Shown: positions 24,377-30,174, counted from the first letter of the stretch. The stretch is DNA of 64,000 nt from Escherichia phage vB_EcoM-CHD94UKE2 (MZ234031.1), one strand, 5' to 3'. The notes: a model not told the origin generated them from the letters alone. Numbers and translations are program-made.

Positions 24377-24598
24377 ATGACTGCTATAACTCCGCAAGAA
24401 TACATGGCGTCTCTTAAAGAAAAATATAATCTTTCTGCAACAGAAACACTTTTTGATTTACCAGAAAACCTTCAACTAAAATTTCAGGTAGAATTTCAAA
24501 AATTAATTCATCCAGAACAAAAACACTTTACCGCAGTCGTTAAGTCAATTAATGCAGATGGAATGACAATTTTTCACCGACAAATAGTACTAATTTAA
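24377..24598 (+). CDS. hypothetical protein (73 aa)
   Basis: ATG 24377 directly after regA stop. Confidence 0.45.
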   Translation: MTAITPQEYMASLKEKYNLSATETLFDLPENLQLKFQVEFQKLIHPEQKHFTAVVKSINADGMTIFHRQIVLI

Positions 24599-24676: not shown

Positions 24677-27373
24677 ATGAAAGAATTTTATATCTCTATT
24701 GAAACAGTCGGAAATAACATCGTTGAACGTTATATTGATGAAAACGGAAAGGAACGTACTCGTGAAGTAGAATATCTTCCGACTATGTTTAGGCATTGTA
24801 AGGAAGAGTCAAAGTACAAAGACATCTATGGTAAAAACTGCGCTCCTCAAAAATTTCCATCAATGAAAGATGCTCGAGATTGGATGAAACGAATGGAAGA
24901 CATCGGTCTCGAAGCTCTCGGTATGAACGATTTTAAACTCGCTTATATCAGTGATACATATGGTTCAGAAATTGTTTATGACCGAAAATTTGTTCGTGTA
25001 GCTAACTGTGACATTGAGGTTACTGGTGATAAATTTCCTGACCCAATGAAAGCTGAATATGAAATTGATGCTATCACTCATTATGATTCAATTGACGATC
25101 GTTTTTACGTCTTTGATTTGTTGAATTCAATGTACGGTTCAGTATCAAAATGGGATGCAAAGTTAGCTGCTAAGCTTGACTGTGAAGGTGGTGATGAAGT
25201 TCCTCAAGAAATTCTTGACCGAGTAATTTATATGCCATTCGATAATGAGCGTGATATGCTCATGGAATATATCAATCTTTGGGAACAGAAACGACCTGCT
25301 ATTTTTACTGGTTGGAATATTGAGGGATTTGACGTTCCGTATATCATGAATCGCGTTAAAATGGTTCTCGGTGAACGCAGTATGAAACGTTTCTCTCCAA
25401 TCGGTCGAGTAAAATCTAAACTAATTCAAAATGTGTACGGTAGCAAAGAAATTTATTCTATTGATGGCGTATCTATTCTTGATTATTTAGATTTGTATAA
25501 GAAATTCGCATTTACTAATTTGCCGTCATTCTCTTTGGAATCAGTTGCTCAACATGAAACCAAAAAAGGTAAATTACCATACGACGGTCCTATTAATAAA
25601 CTTCGTGAGACTAATCATCAACGATACATTAGTTATAACATCATTGACGTAGAATCAGTTCAAGCAATTGATAAAATTCGCGGGTTTATCGATCTAGTTT
25701 TAAGTATGTCTTATTATGCTAAAATGCCTTTTTCTGGTGTAATGAGTCCTATTAAAACTTGGGATGCTATTATTTTTAACTCATTGAAAGGTGAACATAA
25801 GGTTATTCCTCAACAGGGTTCGCACGTTAAACAGAGTTTTCCGGGTGCATTTGTGTTTGAACCTAAACCAATTGCTCGTCGATATATTATGAGTTTTGAC
25901 TTGACGTCTCTGTATCCGAGCATTATTCGTCAGGTTAACATTAGTCCTGAAACTATTCGTGGTCAGTTTAAAGTTCATCCAATTCATGAATATATCGCAG
26001 GAACAGCTCCTAAACCAAGTGATGAATATTCTTGTTCTCCGAATGGATGGATGTATGATAAGCATCAAGAAGGTATCATTCCAAAGGAAATCGCTAAAGT
26101 ATTTTTCCAGCGTAAAGATTGGAAAAAGAAAATGTTCGCTGAAGAAATGAATGCCGAAGCTATTAAAAAGATTATTATGAAAGGCGCAGGGTCTTGTTCA
26201 ACTAAACCAGAAGTTGAACGATATGTTAAGTTCAGTGATGATTTCTTAAATGAACTATCGAATTACACCGAATCCGTTCTCAATAGTCTGATTGAGGAAT
26301 GTGAAAAAGCAGCTACACTTGCTAACACAAATCAGCTGAACCGTAAAATTCTTATTAACAGTCTTTATGGTGCTCTTGGTAATATTCATTTCCGTTACTA
26401 TGATTTGCGAAATGCTACTGCTATCACAATTTTCGGTCAAGTCGGTATTCAGTGGATTGCTCGTAAAATTAATGAATATCTAAATAAAGTATGTGGAACT
26501 GATGGTGAAGATTTCATTGCCGCGGGTGATACTGATTCGGTATATGTTTGTGTAGATAAAGTAATTGAAAAAGTAGGTCTTGACCGCTTTAAAGAACAAA
26601 ATGATTTAGTTGAATTCATGAATCAGTTTGGTAAGAAAAAGATGGAACCTATGATTGATGTTGCATATCGTGAGTTATGTGATTATATGAATAATCGCGA
26701 GCATCTGATGCATATGGACCGTGAAGCTATTTCTTGCCCTCCACTTGGTTCAAAGGGCGTTGGTGGATTTTGGAAAGCGAAAAAGCGTTATGCTCTGAAC
26801 GTTTATGATATGGAAGATAAACGATTTGCTGAACCGCATCTAAAAATCATGGGTATGGAAACTCAACAGAGTTCAACACCAAAAGCAGTGCAAGAAGCTC
26901 TCGAAGAAAGTATTCGTCGTATTCTTCAGGAAGGTGAAGAGTCTGTCCAAGAATATTACAAAAACTTCGAGAAAGAATATCGTCAGCTTGACTATAAAGT
27001 TATTGCTGAAGTAAAAACTGCGAACGATATAGCGAAATATGATGATAAAGGTTGGCCAGGATTTAAATGTCCGTTCCATATTCGCGGTGTGCTAACTTAT
27101 CGTCGAGCTGTTAGTGGTCTGGGTGTAGCTCCAATTTTGGATGGAAATAAAGTAATGGTTCTTCCATTGCGTGAAGGAAATCCATTTGGTGACAAGTGCA
27201 TTGCTTGGCCGTCGGGCACAGAACTTCCAAAAGAAATTCGTTCTGATGTACTATCTTGGATTGACTACTCAACTTTGTTCCAAAAATCGTTTGTTAAACC
27301 GCTTGCGGGCATGTGTGAATCGGCTGGTATGGACTATGAAGAAAAAGCTTCGTTAGACTTCCTGTTTGGCTGA
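24677..27373 (+). CDS. 43: DNA polymerase gp43 (family B)
   Basis: 898 aa; motifs SLYPS, KILINSLYG, AGDTDS. Confidence 0.97.
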   Translation: MKEFYISIETVGNNIVERYIDENGKERTREVEYLPTMFRHCKEESKYKDIYGKNCAPQKFPSMKDARDWMKRMEDIGLEALGMNDFKLAYISDTYGSEIVYDRKFVRVANCDIEVTGDKFPDPMKAEYEIDAITHYDSIDDRFYVFDLLNSMYGSVSKWDAKLAAKLDCEGGDEVPQEILDRVIYMPFDNERDMLMEYINLWEQKRPAIFTGWNIEGFDVPYIMNRVKMVLGERSMKRFSPIGRVKSKLIQNVYGSKEIYSIDGVSILDYLDLYKKFAFTNLPSFSLESVAQHETKKGKLPYDGPINKLRETNHQRYISYNIIDVESVQAIDKIRGFIDLVLSMSYYAKMPFSGVMSPIKTWDAIIFNSLKGEHKVIPQQGSHVKQSFPGAFVFEPKPIARRYIMSFDLTSLYPSIIRQVNISPETIRGQFKVHPIHEYIAGTAPKPSDEYSCSPNGWMYDKHQEGIIPKEIAKVFFQRKDWKKKMFAEEMNAEAIKKIIMKGAGSCSTKPEVERYVKFSDDFLNELSNYTESVLNSLIEECEKAATLANTNQLNRKILINSLYGALGNIHFRYYDLRNATAITIFGQVGIQWIARKINEYLNKVCGTDGEDFIAAGDTDSVYVCVDKVIEKVGLDRFKEQNDLVEFMNQFGKKKMEPMIDVAYRELCDYMNNREHLMHMDREAISCPPLGSKGVGGFWKAKKRYALNVYDMEDKRFAEPHLKIMGMETQQSSTPKAVQEALEESIRRILQEGEESVQEYYKNFEKEYRQLDYKVIAEVKTANDIAKYDDKGWPGFKCPFHIRGVLTYRRAVSGLGVAPILDGNKVMVLPLREGNPFGDKCIAWPSGTELPKEIRSDVLSWIDYSTLFQKSFVKPLAGMCESAGMDYEEKASLDFLFG

Positions 27374-27386
27374 TAGAATAAATCTA

Positions 27387-27407
27387 GGGACCTCCGGGTC
27401 CCTTTTT
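27387..27407 (+). terminator. intrinsic terminator
   Basis: GGGACC-TCCG-GGTCCC + TTTTT. Confidence 0.7.
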
Positions 27408-27490
27408 CATACAAGTAATATAAATCTATACTTAGGAAAAATAGATGATTCTAGGTCCTGTAAATTCATTAAAAATTTTTTCACAAAACT

Positions 27491-27520
27491 GTTTACAAGA
27501 CTGTTCCTCTGTGGTACTAT
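27491..27520 (+). promoter_or_regulatory. T4-type early promoter (GTTTAC-N18-TACTAT)
   Basis: about 45-bp near-identity with the promoter at 1376. Confidence 0.6.
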
Positions 27521-27554
27521 ACAATTATCAACTAATACGGATTTGGAGAATAAA

Positions 27555-27791
27555 ATGAAAATTGTTATGGGATGCTTAGCAGTTTGTTTAGTTGCATTAG
27601 CAGCAGTTCCATTTGTTAGTGTTGAAAATGATACTCAACCTGTGATTGAATCTAGCACCGTTATTCACACTAATGGTAAAATATCAGTTAAAATTGATGA
27701 TAATCTTCATGTGAATACTAATGGAACGCTGGGTGTTCAATTAGGTAATATCTGTGTAAGCACTACTGGAGTAATTACTACTTGTATTTGA
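27555..27791 (+). CDS. small secreted protein (78 aa) with N-terminal signal peptide
   Basis: MKIVMGCLAVCLVALAAVPF...; GGAGAATAAA SD; ORF-track 27366 start runs through terminator and promoter. Confidence 0.5.
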   Translation: MKIVMGCLAVCLVALAAVPFVSVENDTQPVIESSTVIHTNGKISVKIDDNLHVNTNGTLGVQLGNICVSTTGVITTCI

Positions 27792-27801
27792 GGAAATTAT
27801 T

Positions 27802-28182
27802 ATGAAAATCGCTATTTTGGTTATTGCATTAGGTCTTACTGGTTGTGTAGCTCAAGGACCGGTAGTAAATCAGTCTGATGCAGGAAAAATTGTAAACTGT
27901 TCAAGCAAATTTTATAATCCTAATGTCAAGTGTTATAAAGAAGCTCCAAAGCAAACAGTCGAACAAATGCAGGCGAATTTTGACGAAGCTATTCGTCCAG
28001 ATGAATCTGCTCAAGCATATCGTAATTCTGATGTAATTACACGCGAAGAAAAAATTGAAAACTACTGCGCCGAAATTTGGGCTAATTGGGCTAATAATTA
28101 CCAATGGCGTACTGGTAAAAATGCTCCGATGGAGTATGTAGTGAATTCTTATAATTCATGCGTAAAAAATTTGACTAAGTGA
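27802..28182 (+). CDS. predicted lipoprotein (126 aa)
   Basis: signal peptide with lipobox LTGC (MKIAILVIALGLTGCVAQ), GAGGAAA SD. Confidence 0.6.
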   Translation: MKIAILVIALGLTGCVAQGPVVNQSDAGKIVNCSSKFYNPNVKCYKEAPKQTVEQMQANFDEAIRPDESAQAYRNSDVITREEKIENYCAEIWANWANNYQWRTGKNAPMEYVVNSYNSCVKNLTK

Positions 28183-28189
28183 GGAAAAC

Positions 28190-28441
28190 ATGGAAACTTT
28201 AGTAGCAGGTTCAATTTTTATGGTTTTAGTATCAGGCGTGTTGGCTATTATTATATACATGCTTCCATGGTTTATCGCCTTGATGCGTGGGTCAAAATCG
28301 ACAGTAGGAATCTTTTTCACATCTTTACTGTTTAACTGGTCAATTATTGGTTGGTTTATTACATTTATTTGGTCAATTGTAGGTGAAACTAAAAAGTCTG
28401 CGCAGCCAAATCAGGTAATTATCATCAGAGAGAAGGAATGA
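28190..28441 (+). CDS. imm: superinfection immunity protein Imm (by size, topology and position)
   Basis: 83 aa, two hydrophobic segments, between 43 and 42. Confidence 0.6.
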   Translation: METLVAGSIFMVLVSGVLAIIIYMLPWFIALMRGSKSTVGIFFTSLLFNWSIIGWFITFIWSIVGETKKSAQPNQVIIIREKE

Positions 28442-28587
28442 AAAGCAAAATTATAGCAGTGTTGCTTTTAATCTTGATGGTTATAATAAGTATATACTAT
28501 AGTGTAACGGTTCCTCTTATGATTCCAACTATTATTTTAGGTTGGAGTTTATTACTGTTACAAATTAAATATGAATGCATCAATTGA
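28438..28587 (+). CDS. small membrane protein (49 aa)
   Basis: ATGA overlap with imm stop; hydrophobic. Confidence 0.35.
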   Translation: MKSKIIAVLLLILMVIISIYYSVTVPLMIPTIILGWSLLLLQIKYECIN

Positions 28588-28594
28588 GGTTTAA

Positions 28595-29335
28595 ATGATT
28601 AACGATTATATGACAGTTGAAGAAATCCGTCTTGATTTGGGTCTTGCATTAAAGGAAAAAGATTTCGTAATTGATAAAACCGGGGTTAAAACTATTGAAA
28701 TTATTGGTGCATCATTTGTAGCAGATGAACCTTTTATTTTTGGCGCTCTTAATGATGAATACATTCAGCGTGAACTTGAATGGTATAAATCTAAGAGCTT
28801 GTTCGTTAAAGATATTCCAGGTGAAACACCGAAGATTTGGCAGCAGGTAGCATCTTCTAAAGGCGAAATTAACTCGAATTATGGTTGGGCTATCTGGTCA
28901 GAAGATAACTATGCTCAGTATGATATGTGTTTAGCTGAACTTGGTCAAAATCCTGATTCTCGACGTGGTATCATGATTTATACTCGTCCATCCATGCAAT
29001 TTGACTACAATAAAGATGGTATGTCAGATTTCATGTGTACGAATACAGTACAGTACCTGATTCGTGATAAGAAAGTCAATGCAGTAGTAAGCATGCGCTC
29101 AAATGACGTGGTCTTCGGATTCCGTAATGATTATGCATGGCAAAAATACGTATTAGATAAATTAGTATCTGATTTGAATGCAGGCGATTCAACTCGTCAG
29201 TATAAAGCAGGTTCTATTATATGGAATGTTGGAAGTCTTCATGTATATTCTCGTCATTTTTACTTGGTTGATCATTGGTGGAATACTGGCGAAACTCATA
29301 TTGTGAAAAAAGATTATAACGGTGAGTGGAAATGA
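28595..29335 (+). CDS. 42: dCMP hydroxymethylase gp42
   Basis: 246 aa, matches T4 gp42 by recall. Confidence 0.9.
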   Translation: MINDYMTVEEIRLDLGLALKEKDFVIDKTGVKTIEIIGASFVADEPFIFGALNDEYIQRELEWYKSKSLFVKDIPGETPKIWQQVASSKGEINSNYGWAIWSEDNYAQYDMCLAELGQNPDSRRGIMIYTRPSMQFDYNKDGMSDFMCTNTVQYLIRDKKVNAVVSMRSNDVVFGFRNDYAWQKYVLDKLVSDLNAGDSTRQYKAGSIIWNVGSLHVYSRHFYLVDHWWNTGETHIVKKDYNGEWK

Positions 29336-30174
29336 TTCAATTCGTAATTCCAAGCTATCAACGCGTAGGGGCAGTTTCTGCCCTTGATATGTTTCCGACT
29401 GATTATGAACCACATATTGTAGTGCGTGAACACGAAGAAAAAGCTTATTATGATGCTTATGGGTCTAGAGCTAAAATTGTAACTATTCCTGATGATGTTA
29501 ATGGAATTGCCGGTACTCGTAAAGCAATTACTGATATGTATGCAGGTCAACGAATCTGGATGATTGATGATGATACTACTATTCGTATGAGTTCAATACG
29601 AAAGAGAGACGATAAACGGCGCGTAGATAAAATTAATCAATTAACTCGTGAACAGTTCTATGAATTAATTCAATACGTTGAGGATGCTATGGATTGCGGG
29701 TATTATCACGGTCATGCTCGTCTACCAATTTTTAAAATTACTTCATCTTGGGGTAATTATCGTGAAAACTCATATGGATTCACGAATACATGGTATGACC
29801 TCGGAAAACTTACGACAGAACAAATTGGGTATGGAAAAATTGATTTATGTGAAGATATGTACGCATTTCTCAATTTAATTAATCAAGGTTATCCGCATTT
29901 GGCCTTGTTCAAATATCTAGTTGTATCTGGAAAATCACACGCTCCCGGCGGGTGCAGTTCAATTCGTAGTAATTCTAAACATAATAGAGCGCTTGAACAA
30001 ATCAATAGAGAGTTTCCAGAGCAAGCTCGTTGGAAAACTTCTAATATTGAAAAACGAAAATCGTTGGGTGAAGAAGACGAGCCATTAAAGGTTCTTCGCA
30101 TGTGTGTTTCTCGTAAAGAAAAATCAGAAGCATTTCATAAGTTTAATGCTATTCATCCAATAGCAGTTGATTAA
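29332..30174 (+). CDS. glycosyltransferase with DxD motif (possibly beta-glucosyl-HMC alpha-glucosyltransferase-like), not T4 beta-gt
   Basis: 280 aa, RIWMIDDDTTI motif; occupies the slot between 42 and uvsX. Confidence 0.5.
   Translation: MIQFVIPSYQRVGAVSALDMFPTDYEPHIVVREHEEKAYYDAYGSRAKIVTIPDDVNGIAGTRKAITDMYAGQRIWMIDDDTTIRMSSIRKRDDKRRVDKINQLTREQFYELIQYVEDAMDCGYYHGHARLPIFKITSSWGNYRENSYGFTNTWYDLGKLTTEQIGYGKIDLCEDMYAFLNLINQGYPHLALFKYLVVSGKSHAPGGCSSIRSNSKHNRALEQINREFPEQARWKTSNIEKRKSLGEEDEPLKVLRMCVSRKEKSEAFHKFNAIHPIAVD

What the first reader, a model, noticed from the sequence alone, without database searches (positions are those of the whole stretch)
27491..28587. Secreted-protein and lipoprotein pair with its own early promoter directly upstream of imm
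Between gene 43 and imm sit a 78-aa protein with a signal peptide (MKIVMGCLAVCLVALAAVPF) and a 126-aa predicted lipoprotein (lipobox LTGC), followed by the 83-aa two-helix Imm-like protein and a 49-aa hydrophobic peptide. This is a four-gene envelope-targeted module in the superinfection-immunity locus. A lipoprotein here is not something I recall from T4 and could be an additional superinfection-exclusion or envelope-modifying factor.
Basis: partly seen in the sequence, partly recalled or inferred. Interest (0 to 1): 0.55.

Follow-up and report, generated by a model that had tools for sequence, protein, structure and literature searches.

The report
Standard T-even imm locus, extra ORF
This is the ordinary superinfection-immunity locus of a T4-like coliphage: the "new" lipoprotein is T4's own uncharacterised gene imm.1, and only the small 78-residue exported protein is missing from T4, though hundreds of other T-even phages carry it.

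Summary
The four ORFs, their hydrophobic N-termini, the LTGC lipobox and an early-type promoter are all at the stated coordinates.

- **Source.** The window is a Tequatrovirus, 100% identical here to phages slur03, slur14 and Lutter.
- **126-aa lipoprotein.** It is the orthologue of T4 imm.1 (Pfam DUF5481, 1e-70; 97.6% identical, same position).
- **83-aa ORF.** It is T4 imm.
- **49-aa ORF.** It is "42.1" of RB32. It is present but unannotated in T4 RefSeq.
- **78-aa ORF.** It is the only one absent from T4. It is a 247-bp cassette at the imm.1 start codon, found in 325 phage records. T2 carries an unrelated gene in the same slot.

The four genes are not one module. ORF78 and 42.1 have separate distributions. 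Only imm.1 and imm travel together, in ten lineages and three genomic contexts, next to spackle in Mosigvirus. Even they occur apart.

imm.1 is under strong purifying selection (pN/pS 0.05). Its export signal and paired cysteines are conserved. It has no structural or sequence relatives of known function.

My inference is that Imm.1 is an outer-membrane-anchored periplasmic early protein acting beside Imm.

The locus is already known and of low interest, with one testable lead.

The parts
27386..27408 (+). Intrinsic-terminator-like hairpin (AGGGACC-TCCG-GGTCCCT) plus T-run, directly after gene 43
   Evidence: Terminator scan. Conserved in T4 and T2. Annotated as a terminator in phage Lutter.
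27491..27520 (+). Early-type sigma-70 promoter (GTTTAC -35, TG-extended TACTAT -10) with an A/T-rich upstream stretch. It drives the imm transcription unit.
   Evidence: The same element is conserved in T4, RB32, T2 and metagenomic relatives. Annotated as a promoter in Lutter. The match to the T4 early-promoter consensus rests on my own knowledge; the transcription start was not measured.
27555..27791 (+). ORF78: accessory small exported or anchored protein. It has an N-terminal 19-21-residue hydrophobic segment and a ~55-residue beta-rich domain with two conserved C-terminal Cys (C67, C77). PHROG 4189.
   Evidence: It is a 247-bp indel relative to T4, bounded by an ATGAAAAT repeat. Found in 325 phage records. 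pN/pS 0.38.
27802..28182 (+). imm.1 orthologue (Pfam DUF5481): predicted lipoprotein with lipobox LTGC, Cys15 and Val at +2. The mature part is helical with Cys pairs 33/44 and 89/120.
28190..28441 (+). imm: superinfection immunity protein, two hydrophobic segments, 97.6% identical to T4 Imm
   Evidence: Pfam PF14373 at 7.7e-16, PHROG 1039.
28438..28587 (+). ORF49 = gene '42.1' of RB32: 49-aa protein with two hydrophobic segments. Its start overlaps the imm stop (ATGA).
   Evidence: PHROG 3610 at 1.5e-25. Annotated as 42.1 in RB32. Intact but unannotated in T4 RefSeq. Protein-level homologues at 43-65% identity in Mosig-, Dhaka- and Winklervirus and in metagenomic lineages.
28460..28487 (+). 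Middle-promoter-like site inside ORF49: TGCTTTT MotA-box-like, 12-bp spacer, TATAAT. It would serve gene 42.
   Evidence: Sequence read directly. Lutter annotates a promoter here. The MotA-box consensus is from my own knowledge; function not tested.

Best explanation
Shown: this is the canonical Tequatrovirus imm transcription unit. The order is gene 43, terminator, early promoter, [optional cassette], imm.1, imm, 42.1, gene 42. The 126-aa lipoprotein is the orthologue of T4 imm.1, an annotated gene of unknown function. The 83-aa protein is Imm. The 49-aa protein is 42.1. ORF78 occupies a variable cassette slot exactly at the imm.1 start codon. That slot is empty in T4 and RB32, filled by ORF78 here, and filled by an unrelated 83-aa gene in T2. 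Inferred mechanism for Imm.1: it is made within minutes of infection from the early promoter and exported by Sec. It is lipidated at Cys15 by the host Lgt/LspA/Lnt pathway. [quoted passage not shown] There a disulfide-stabilised helical domain faces the periplasm. It acts beside Imm as a further envelope or superinfection factor. Its target would be something invariant among T-even phages or their hosts, such as the incoming tail-tip or injection machinery, or the envelope itself, rather than a specific receptor. It is not an obligate Imm subunit. ORF78 is an independently mobile, periplasm-exposed accessory protein of unknown role. The identity part is near certain (~0.95). The functional part is a guess at about 0.35.
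For: Identity. The region is 100% identical to slur03, slur14 and Lutter, and 518 phage records match it. The T4 annotation and alignment agree. DUF5481 scores 1e-70 and PF14373 7.7e-16. RB32 names the 49-aa gene 42.1. Export. The PS51257-type pattern is met (K2, uncharged h-region, LTGC, Cys15). A lipobox is kept in T4-type, Mosigvirus, P0022, P0023, S16, Klebsiella-phage and Moonvirus forms. The two forms without the Cys keep an AHA signal-peptidase site, so periplasmic location is the conserved feature. C89 and C120 are invariant in 9 lineages. C33 and C44 are present or absent together, as expected for periplasmic disulfides. Selection. pN/pS is 0.05 within Tequatrovirus. Linkage. The imm.1-type gene sits directly 5' of imm, 7-61 nt away, in Tequatrovirus, contigs L014, L016, L021 and L027, Mosigvirus, Gelderlandvirus, Moonvirus and a Klebsiella T4-like phage. 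In Mosigvirus the pair has moved between 61.4 and sp, the other known exclusion gene. Record counts of Imm.1 and Imm match 1:1 in Tequatrovirus (~500) and Mosigvirus (~155). Not receptor-specific. T2 and T4 Imm.1 are about 97% identical, although these phages use different receptors (established knowledge).
Against: There is no functional evidence for Imm.1. No paper in the library addresses it beyond one speculative mention. Imm alone is protective when expressed (PMC12373910). From memory, Lu and Henning 1989 showed that imm on a plasmid suffices and that disrupting imm abolishes immunity, so Imm.1 is neither necessary nor sufficient in those assays. The pair is separable. Dhakavirus and Gaprivervirus have imm directly after gene 43 with no imm.1. 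Karamvirus CC31 has the lipoprotein with no imm beside it, and Enterobacter phages are scarce among Imm hits. The AF2 model is only moderate (pLDDT 63), and Foldseek found nothing significant. Two lineages lack the lipid-attachment Cys.
Confidence: 0.55

Rival explanations
1. One reading: a four-gene, co-functioning envelope module that contains a lipoprotein not found in T4, acting as an additional exclusion factor.
For: All four products have hydrophobic export or membrane segments and share one early transcription unit.
Against: The lipoprotein is T4 imm.1. ORF78 is absent from T4, RB32 and about a third of Tequatroviruses. T2 replaces it with an unrelated gene, and in Dhakavirus it sits at another locus. 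The 49-aa gene stays near gene 43 in Mosigvirus and Winklervirus without imm, and it is missing from contig L014, which has imm.1-imm.
Confidence: 0.05
2. Imm.1 has nothing to do with superinfection. It is an envelope-directed early protein with another role, such as countering a host envelope or periplasmic defence, modifying the wall or outer membrane, or supporting lysis timing. Its position next to imm reflects only shared early expression in a plastic region downstream of gene 43.
For: Imm and the lipoprotein each occur alone in some genera. Imm suffices by itself. The region between genes 43 and 42 is a cassette hot-spot.
Against: The pair stays adjacent after translocation to a different locus in Mosigvirus, where it lands beside sp, and in contig L016. 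Adjacency holds in ten lineages even though Imm.1 has diverged to 15-44% identity to the window protein.
Confidence: 0.3
3. Imm.1 is a receptor-masking exclusion lipoprotein of the T5 Llp / Cor type. It would bind the phage's outer-membrane receptor from the periplasmic side.
For: It is a predicted outer-membrane lipoprotein made early by a lytic phage, like Llp (PMC9586334, listed).
Against: No sequence or fold similarity to any solved structure, and no PADLOC, NCBIfam or PHROG link. It is about 97% identical between T2-type and T4-type phages that use different receptors. Two lineages are not lipidated.
Confidence: 0.08
4. ORF78, a type II membrane protein, and Imm.1, an outer-membrane lipoprotein, form a two-component spanin (Rz/Rz1-like) lysis pair.
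For: The order 'N-terminal anchor protein, then lipoprotein' superficially resembles a separated i-spanin/o-spanin pair.
Against: T4, RB32 and many others have Imm.1 without ORF78. The genes are expressed from an early, not late, promoter. ORF78's periplasmic part is short and beta-rich, not coiled-coil. Imm.1 is a 110-residue helical domain, not a short proline-rich o-spanin. T-even spanins are pseT.3/pseT.2 elsewhere in the genome (own knowledge).
Confidence: 0.02
5. The 49-aa ORF is not a gene. It is only the promoter and leader region of gene 42 that happens to be open.
For: It contains a middle-promoter-like site. It is unannotated in T4 RefSeq. Its pN/pS is only 0.39.
Against: It is open and of constant length in 11 distinct Tequatrovirus alleles examined, with tblastn matches in 764 phage records. 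Protein-level similarity of 43-65% persists in genera and lineages where the flanks differ. PHROG 3610 matches at 1.5e-25. Its start is coupled to the imm stop.
Confidence: 0.1

Closest known systems
Phage T4 gene imm.1 (NP_049661; Pfam DUF5481)
   Same: Same position (gene 43, promoter, imm.1, imm), 97.6% amino-acid identity, the same lipobox region (LAGC in T4, LTGC here) and the same four mature-region cysteines.
   Different: One residue longer, from a 1-nt indel at the C-terminus. Here it is preceded by the ORF78 cassette, which also supplies a new ribosome-binding site. The RefSeq product name 'iduronate sulfatase' has no support in Pfam.
Phage T4 Imm (PF14373 Imm_superinfect)
   Same: The 83-aa ORF is 97.6% identical and scores 58 bits against a cut-off of 27.9. 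Imm blocks entry of superinfecting T-even DNA (PMC7677548; PMC12373910).
   Different: None of note.
RB32 gene 42.1 (ABI94867) / PHROG 3610
   Same: The 49-aa ORF has the same length, the same position and the same overlap with the imm stop codon.
   Different: 85.7% identity. The gene is simply not annotated in T4 RefSeq.
T5 Llp and Cor-type exclusion lipoproteins
   Same: Small outer-membrane lipoproteins made by the infecting phage that protect the infected cell (one search list).
   Different: No homology. Imm.1 does not co-vary with receptor use. No phenotype is known.
T4 Spackle (gp61.3)
   Same: Early, Sec-exported, small helical periplasmic protein with a disulfide. Its gene is adjacent to imm.1-imm in Mosigvirus (PMC7677548).
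   Different: No Spackle chain appeared among the best 50 of 87 Foldseek PDB matches, and none was significant. There is no sequence similarity, and Spackle is not lipidated.
Lipoprotein genes upstream of imm in Gelderlandvirus S16 (gp27), Moonvirus and Klebsiella T4-like phages
   Same: Same position, a lipobox (LAGC or LTGC), the two C-terminal Cys, and a shared VVPASxVGxVR-type motif with DUF5481 members P0022 and P0023.
   Different: 146-149 aa. They fall below the DUF5481 Pfam threshold. Profile-profile alignment covers only the first 30 columns. In Karamvirus CC31 the same protein has no imm next to it.

Membership tests
Bacterial lipoprotein (Lgt/LspA substrate; PROSITE PS51257-type pattern): Imm.1 | K/R in the first 7 residues, an uncharged hydrophobic stretch, a lipobox [LVI][ASTVI][GAS]C, and the Cys at position 15-35 | tested here: met
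   MKIAILVIALGLTGC has K2, no charge in residues 3-14, LTGC and Cys15. The rule was applied by hand; SignalP and LipoP were not available.
Bacterial lipoprotein: Imm.1 | Lipobox Cys conserved in homologues | tested here: inconclusive
   Present in T4-type, Mosigvirus, P0022, P0023, S16, Klebsiella-phage and Moonvirus forms. Absent in P0005 and P0006, which have AHA signal-peptidase-I sites instead.
Bacterial lipoprotein: Imm.1 | Actual lipid modification and outer-membrane sorting | not testable with these tools
   Needs palmitate labelling, globomycin treatment and membrane fractionation. Outer-membrane sorting is inferred only from Val at +2.
Pfam DUF5481 (Imm.1 family) | Score above the Pfam gathering threshold | tested here: met
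   235.1 bits against a cut-off of 27, covering profile positions 1-103 of 103.
Pfam PF14373 Imm_superinfect (T4 Imm) | Score above the gathering threshold, and two hydrophobic segments | tested here: met
   58.2 bits against 27.9. Hydropathy shows two segments. 97.6% identical to T4 Imm.
Sec signal peptide cleaved by signal peptidase I: ORF78 | A short n-region, an h-region of about 7-15 residues, and a small-x-small cleavage site followed by a polar mature part | tested here: inconclusive
   K2 and an A14-L15-A16 motif are present. However, the hydrophobic stretch runs 19-21 residues (3-21/23) and grows to about 28 through 7-residue duplications in relatives, which looks more like a membrane anchor. 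One duplicated variant creates a lipobox (VALAAC, P0017).
Llp/Cor-type receptor-blocking exclusion lipoproteins | Homology to Llp or Cor, or co-variation with receptor specificity | tested here: not met
   No hits in Pfam, PHROGs, NCBIfam, PADLOC, PDB sequences or Foldseek PDB. T2 and T4 alleles are about 97% identical.
Two-component spanin (i-spanin plus o-spanin) | An obligately paired type II membrane protein and lipoprotein, with late expression | tested here: not met
   Imm.1 occurs without ORF78 in T4, RB32 and others. The promoter is early-type. The predicted folds do not fit.
Superinfection exclusion factor (functional class) | Expression reduces infection by the same or related phages | not testable with these tools
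   Known for Imm. There are no data for Imm.1, ORF78 or 42.1.

The most novel reading that the evidence does not exclude
Imm.1-type lipoproteins are an unrecognised third component of T-even superinfection immunity. They would be anchored on the periplasmic face of the outer membrane and work together with inner-membrane Imm, and alongside Spackle, to trap or misdirect the incoming tail tip or DNA. That would help explain how Imm blocks DNA entry, which is still poorly understood. ORF78 would be a further strain-variable add-on to the same barrier.
Probability: 0.25. Interest if true: 0.55.

Novelty: already known. Interest (0 to 1): 0.22.

Why it matters
As found, it matters little. The genes are annotated in hundreds of T-even genomes, and the key one is T4's own imm.1. 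The useful residue is comparative. A strongly constrained, exported, usually lipidated protein is encoded directly upstream of imm in most T4-like genera, and it followed imm when the pair moved next to spackle in Mosigvirus. No open-access paper addresses its function. How Imm stops DNA entry is still poorly understood, so a cheap T4 experiment is justified: delete imm.1 alone and together with imm and sp.

Tried and rejected
- **Literature.** Searches for imm.1 and DUF5481 gave only one speculative mention (PMC5885020). The T4 genome review, the Lu et al. 1993 Imm topology paper and the Mol Cell accessory-gene paper are not held. The supplements of PMC12373910 contain none of these proteins' sequences.
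- **Structure.** The AF2 models were moderate: Imm.1 pLDDT 63 and ORF78 pLDDT 70. Foldseek against PDB gave nothing with E below 0.7 for either. BFVD returned only ORF78's own orthologues. The afdb50 library was unavailable. A PDB sequence search with the Imm.1 profile returned zero hits.
- **ORF78 and adenovirus fibre.** ORF78 shows a weak resemblance to adenovirus-fibre shaft repeats (Pfam E=0.052; Foldseek E of about 2). I rejected it as not significant.
- **Other libraries.** NCBIfam and PADLOC gave nothing meaningful.
- **IMG/VR.** The scan gave only 5 near-identical loci.
- **Link to the S16/Moon/Klebsiella lipoproteins.** Profile-profile alignment covered only the signal peptide plus a short motif. 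Homology of the whole proteins is therefore probable, not proven.
- **Readings considered and rejected.** Spanin pair; Llp-like receptor mask; a very short lipoprotein signal in ORF78 (Cys7 and Cys11 lie too close to the N-terminus).

Full report
**What is in the sequence**

Four same-strand ORFs lie between gene 43 (DNA polymerase, 24677-27373) and gene 42 (dCMP hydroxymethylase, 28595-29335).
- ORF78, 27555-27791
- a 126-aa ORF, 27802-28182
- an 83-aa ORF, 28190-28441
- a 49-aa ORF, 28438-28587, whose ATG overlaps the stop codon of the 83-aa ORF

Just after gene 43 there is a terminator-like hairpin followed by a T-run (27386-27408). About 85 nt further on is a promoter-like site, GTTTAC(A)-17-TACTAT with an upstream TG (27491-27520). 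The finding's start coordinate is the -35 element of that promoter.

**Where the window comes from**

The 1.2-kb region is 100% identical to Escherichia phages slur03, slur08, slur14 and Lutter. It matches 518 phage records, almost all Tequatrovirus (T4-like). Lutter's annotation shows the same layout: terminator, promoters, two hypothetical proteins, "immunity to superinfection", then genes 42, a beta-glucosyl-HMC-alpha-glucosyltransferase and uvsX.

- T4 RefSeq annotates imm.1 (125 aa) and imm (83 aa) between genes 43 and 42.
- A direct alignment of the window with T4 is collinear at about 97% nucleotide identity. It has one clean 247-bp gap in T4 that corresponds exactly to ORF78 plus the ribosome-binding site that follows it.
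- T4 Imm.1 begins MKIAILVIALGLAGC. T4 therefore has the same predicted lipoprotein at the same place, 97.6% identical.
- The 49-aa ORF is also intact in T4 DNA, with 3 conservative substitutions, although RefSeq does not annotate it. RB32 annotates it as gene 42.1.

Three of the four genes are thus direct T4 orthologues. The statement that the lipoprotein is not in T4 is wrong.

**ORF78 is a cassette, not part of a fixed module**

- tblastn finds ORF78 in 325 phage records. By comparison, about 500 Tequatrovirus records carry T4-type imm.1.
- The slot between the early promoter and the imm.1 ATG has at least three states. It is empty in T4, RB32, IME340, SF2-1 and L008. It holds ORF78 here and in L006, L007, L009 and L010. 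In T2 it holds an unrelated, non-hydrophobic 83-aa ORF.
- The ORF78 and T2 cassettes share the 3' junction GAGGAAATTATT-ATG and the same upstream promoter.
- The ORF78 indel is bounded by an 8-nt repeat, ATGAAAAT, formed by the two start codons.
- In Dhakavirus phage dhaeg, a 62%-identical homologue lies at an unrelated locus near a nudix hydrolase and the e lysozyme gene.

ORF78's hydrophobic N-terminus runs 19-21 residues and contains an ALA motif. It could be either a cleaved signal peptide or a type II anchor. Relatives carry 7-residue tandem duplications inside it, and one of these creates a lipobox (VALAAC in P0017, named "Lipoprotein" in UniRef). The remaining ~55 residues are predicted as six short beta-strands (pLDDT 75-90) with two conserved C-terminal cysteines. 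Nothing significant matched in PDB or BFVD apart from its own orthologues. pN/pS is 0.38 over four alleles.

**The 49-aa gene (42.1) is real but not tied to imm**

- It is open in all 11 distinct Tequatrovirus alleles examined, and tblastn matches it in 764 phage records.
- It has 43-65% protein-level relatives in Mosigvirus, Dhakavirus, Winklervirus and metagenomic lineages.
- In Mosigvirus and Winklervirus it remains downstream of gene 43 with no imm beside it. Contig L014 has imm.1-imm-42 without it.
- Its coding sequence also contains a middle-promoter-like site, TGCTTTT-12 bp-TATAAT at 28463-28487, presumably serving gene 42 (the consensus is from my own knowledge).

**Imm.1: what can be said**

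*A narrow family.* A word-indexed search of 5.8 billion proteins found 6 clusters. A full HMMER pass over 1.84 billion representatives with a profile found 6 hits, adding only P0022 and P0023. There is no solved relative, no significant fold match, and no hit in NCBIfam or PADLOC. The RefSeq name "iduronate sulfatase" has no support, because Pfam sees only DUF5481.

*Export is the conserved feature.* The lipobox pattern is met here by hand-applied rule. It is kept in T4-type, Mosigvirus, P0022 and P0023 forms. P0005 and P0006 replace the Cys but keep an AHA cleavage site. Cys89 and Cys120 are invariant in every lineage. Cys33 and Cys44 are both present or both absent, the pattern expected of periplasmic disulfides. 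AF2 gives a helical protein in which the C-terminal helices 81-104 and 110-125 score pLDDT of about 82.

*Selection.* Within Tequatrovirus, pN/pS is 0.05. That is as tight as imm (0.07) and gene 42 (0.08). Between lineages Imm.1 drops to 32-44% identity while the neighbouring polymerase C-terminus stays at 67-92%.

*Linkage to imm.* The imm.1-type gene lies directly 5' of imm in all of these:
- Tequatrovirus
- four metagenomic lineages: L014/L015, L016, L021/L022 and L027
- Mosigvirus
- Gelderlandvirus S16
- Moonvirus
- a Klebsiella T4-like phage

In Mosigvirus the pair has left the 43-42 interval and sits between 61.4 and sp, the other known exclusion gene. The S16, Moonvirus and Klebsiella proteins fall below the DUF5481 threshold. 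Even so, they are lipoproteins with the same two C-terminal Cys and share a VVPASxVGxVR-type motif with P0022 and P0023. Pairwise BLASTP gives 1e-7 and 6e-5, and hhalign gives 96.5% probability over the first 30 columns only.

*The pair is separable.* Dhakavirus JS10 and Gaprivervirus SP18 have imm straight after gene 43. Karamvirus CC31 has the lipoprotein between genes 43 and 42 with no imm. Imm homologues occur in more than 1,800 phage records, including phages of Mycobacterium and Acinetobacter.

**How it most likely works**

- *Shown:* this is an early-type transcription unit encoding envelope-directed proteins, one of which (Imm) is a known blocker of superinfecting DNA entry (PMC7677548; PMC12373910).
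- *Inferred:* Imm.1 is exported, lipidated at Cys15 and sorted to the outer membrane, because residue +2 is Val and not Asp. It exposes a disulfide-stabilised helical domain to the periplasm.
- T2-type and T4-type phages use different outer-membrane receptors (established knowledge). Their Imm.1 proteins are nevertheless about 97% identical. A receptor mask of the Llp/Cor kind is therefore unlikely.
- The target should be something invariant within the genus: the incoming injection apparatus, the envelope, or Imm itself.
- Imm alone protects cells, and each gene can exist without the other. Imm.1 is therefore best seen as a parallel or accessory factor, not an obligate subunit.
- I put this functional reading at about 0.35, and an unrelated envelope role at about 0.3.

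**Comparison with what is known, and verdict**

Every element is already annotated in public genomes. The central "novel lipoprotein" is T4 imm.1. ORF78 is a common strain-variable accessory gene of unknown function. The finding is an accurate reading of the sequence with a mistaken claim of novelty. What remains worth a bench test is the widely conserved lipoprotein-imm pairing, for which the open-access literature offers no function.

Noticed in passing
window 29326-30174: The 282-aa ORF after gene 42 is a T2/T6-type beta-glucosyl-HMC-alpha-glucosyltransferase (Pfam TAGT 1e-9, PHROG 842 at 1.4e-88). T4 has b-gt plus the homing endonuclease segA at this position, so the phage's DNA glucosylation is T2/T6-like rather than T4-like.
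   Followed up: partly
window 28460-28487: A MotA-box-like TGCTTTT, a 12-bp spacer and TATAAT lie inside the 49-aa ORF, upstream of gene 42. A coding sequence and a probable middle promoter overlap here.
   Followed up: partly
window 24377-24598: A 73-aa ORF (MTAITPQEYMASLKEK...) lies between regA and gene 43. It corresponds in position to Lutter gp049. T4 has only a 78-nt gap there, so this is another cassette-type difference from T4. In related contigs, the 71-72-aa genes at this position carry the Pfam family Phage_RB18_ORF43; the window ORF itself was not scanned.
   Followed up: no
L005 2237-2488 (phage T2): T2 carries an unrelated, non-hydrophobic 83-aa ORF in the same slot as ORF78. It uses the same promoter and the same 3' junction (GAGGAAATTATT-ATG), and has no family hit in NCBIfam or PADLOC.
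   Followed up: partly
P0011, P0017, P0018 (ORF78 relatives): Relatives carry 7-residue tandem duplications (CLVALAA-type) inside the N-terminal hydrophobic segment, lengthening it to about 28 residues. In P0017 the duplication creates a lipobox (VALAAC), which explains the UniRef name 'Lipoprotein'.
   Followed up: partly
L002 5228-5377 (T4 record 26227-26376) and T4 imm.1: T4 RefSeq does not annotate the 49-aa gene 42.1, although the ORF is intact. It also labels imm.1 'iduronate sulfatase', a name with no Pfam support that has spread to T2, KNP5, ECML-134 and other records.
   Followed up: yes
L028 1162-1602 (Karamvirus CC31): The Imm.1-like lipoprotein sits between genes 43 and 42 with no imm gene beside it. 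Enterobacter phages are rare among Imm tblastn hits, so this genus appears to keep the lipoprotein without Imm.
   Followed up: partly
L003 2495-3530 (Mosigvirus JS09): imm.1, imm and sp (spackle) form one contiguous cluster between 61.4 and 61.2. Both known T-even exclusion genes are therefore together with imm.1.
   Followed up: yes
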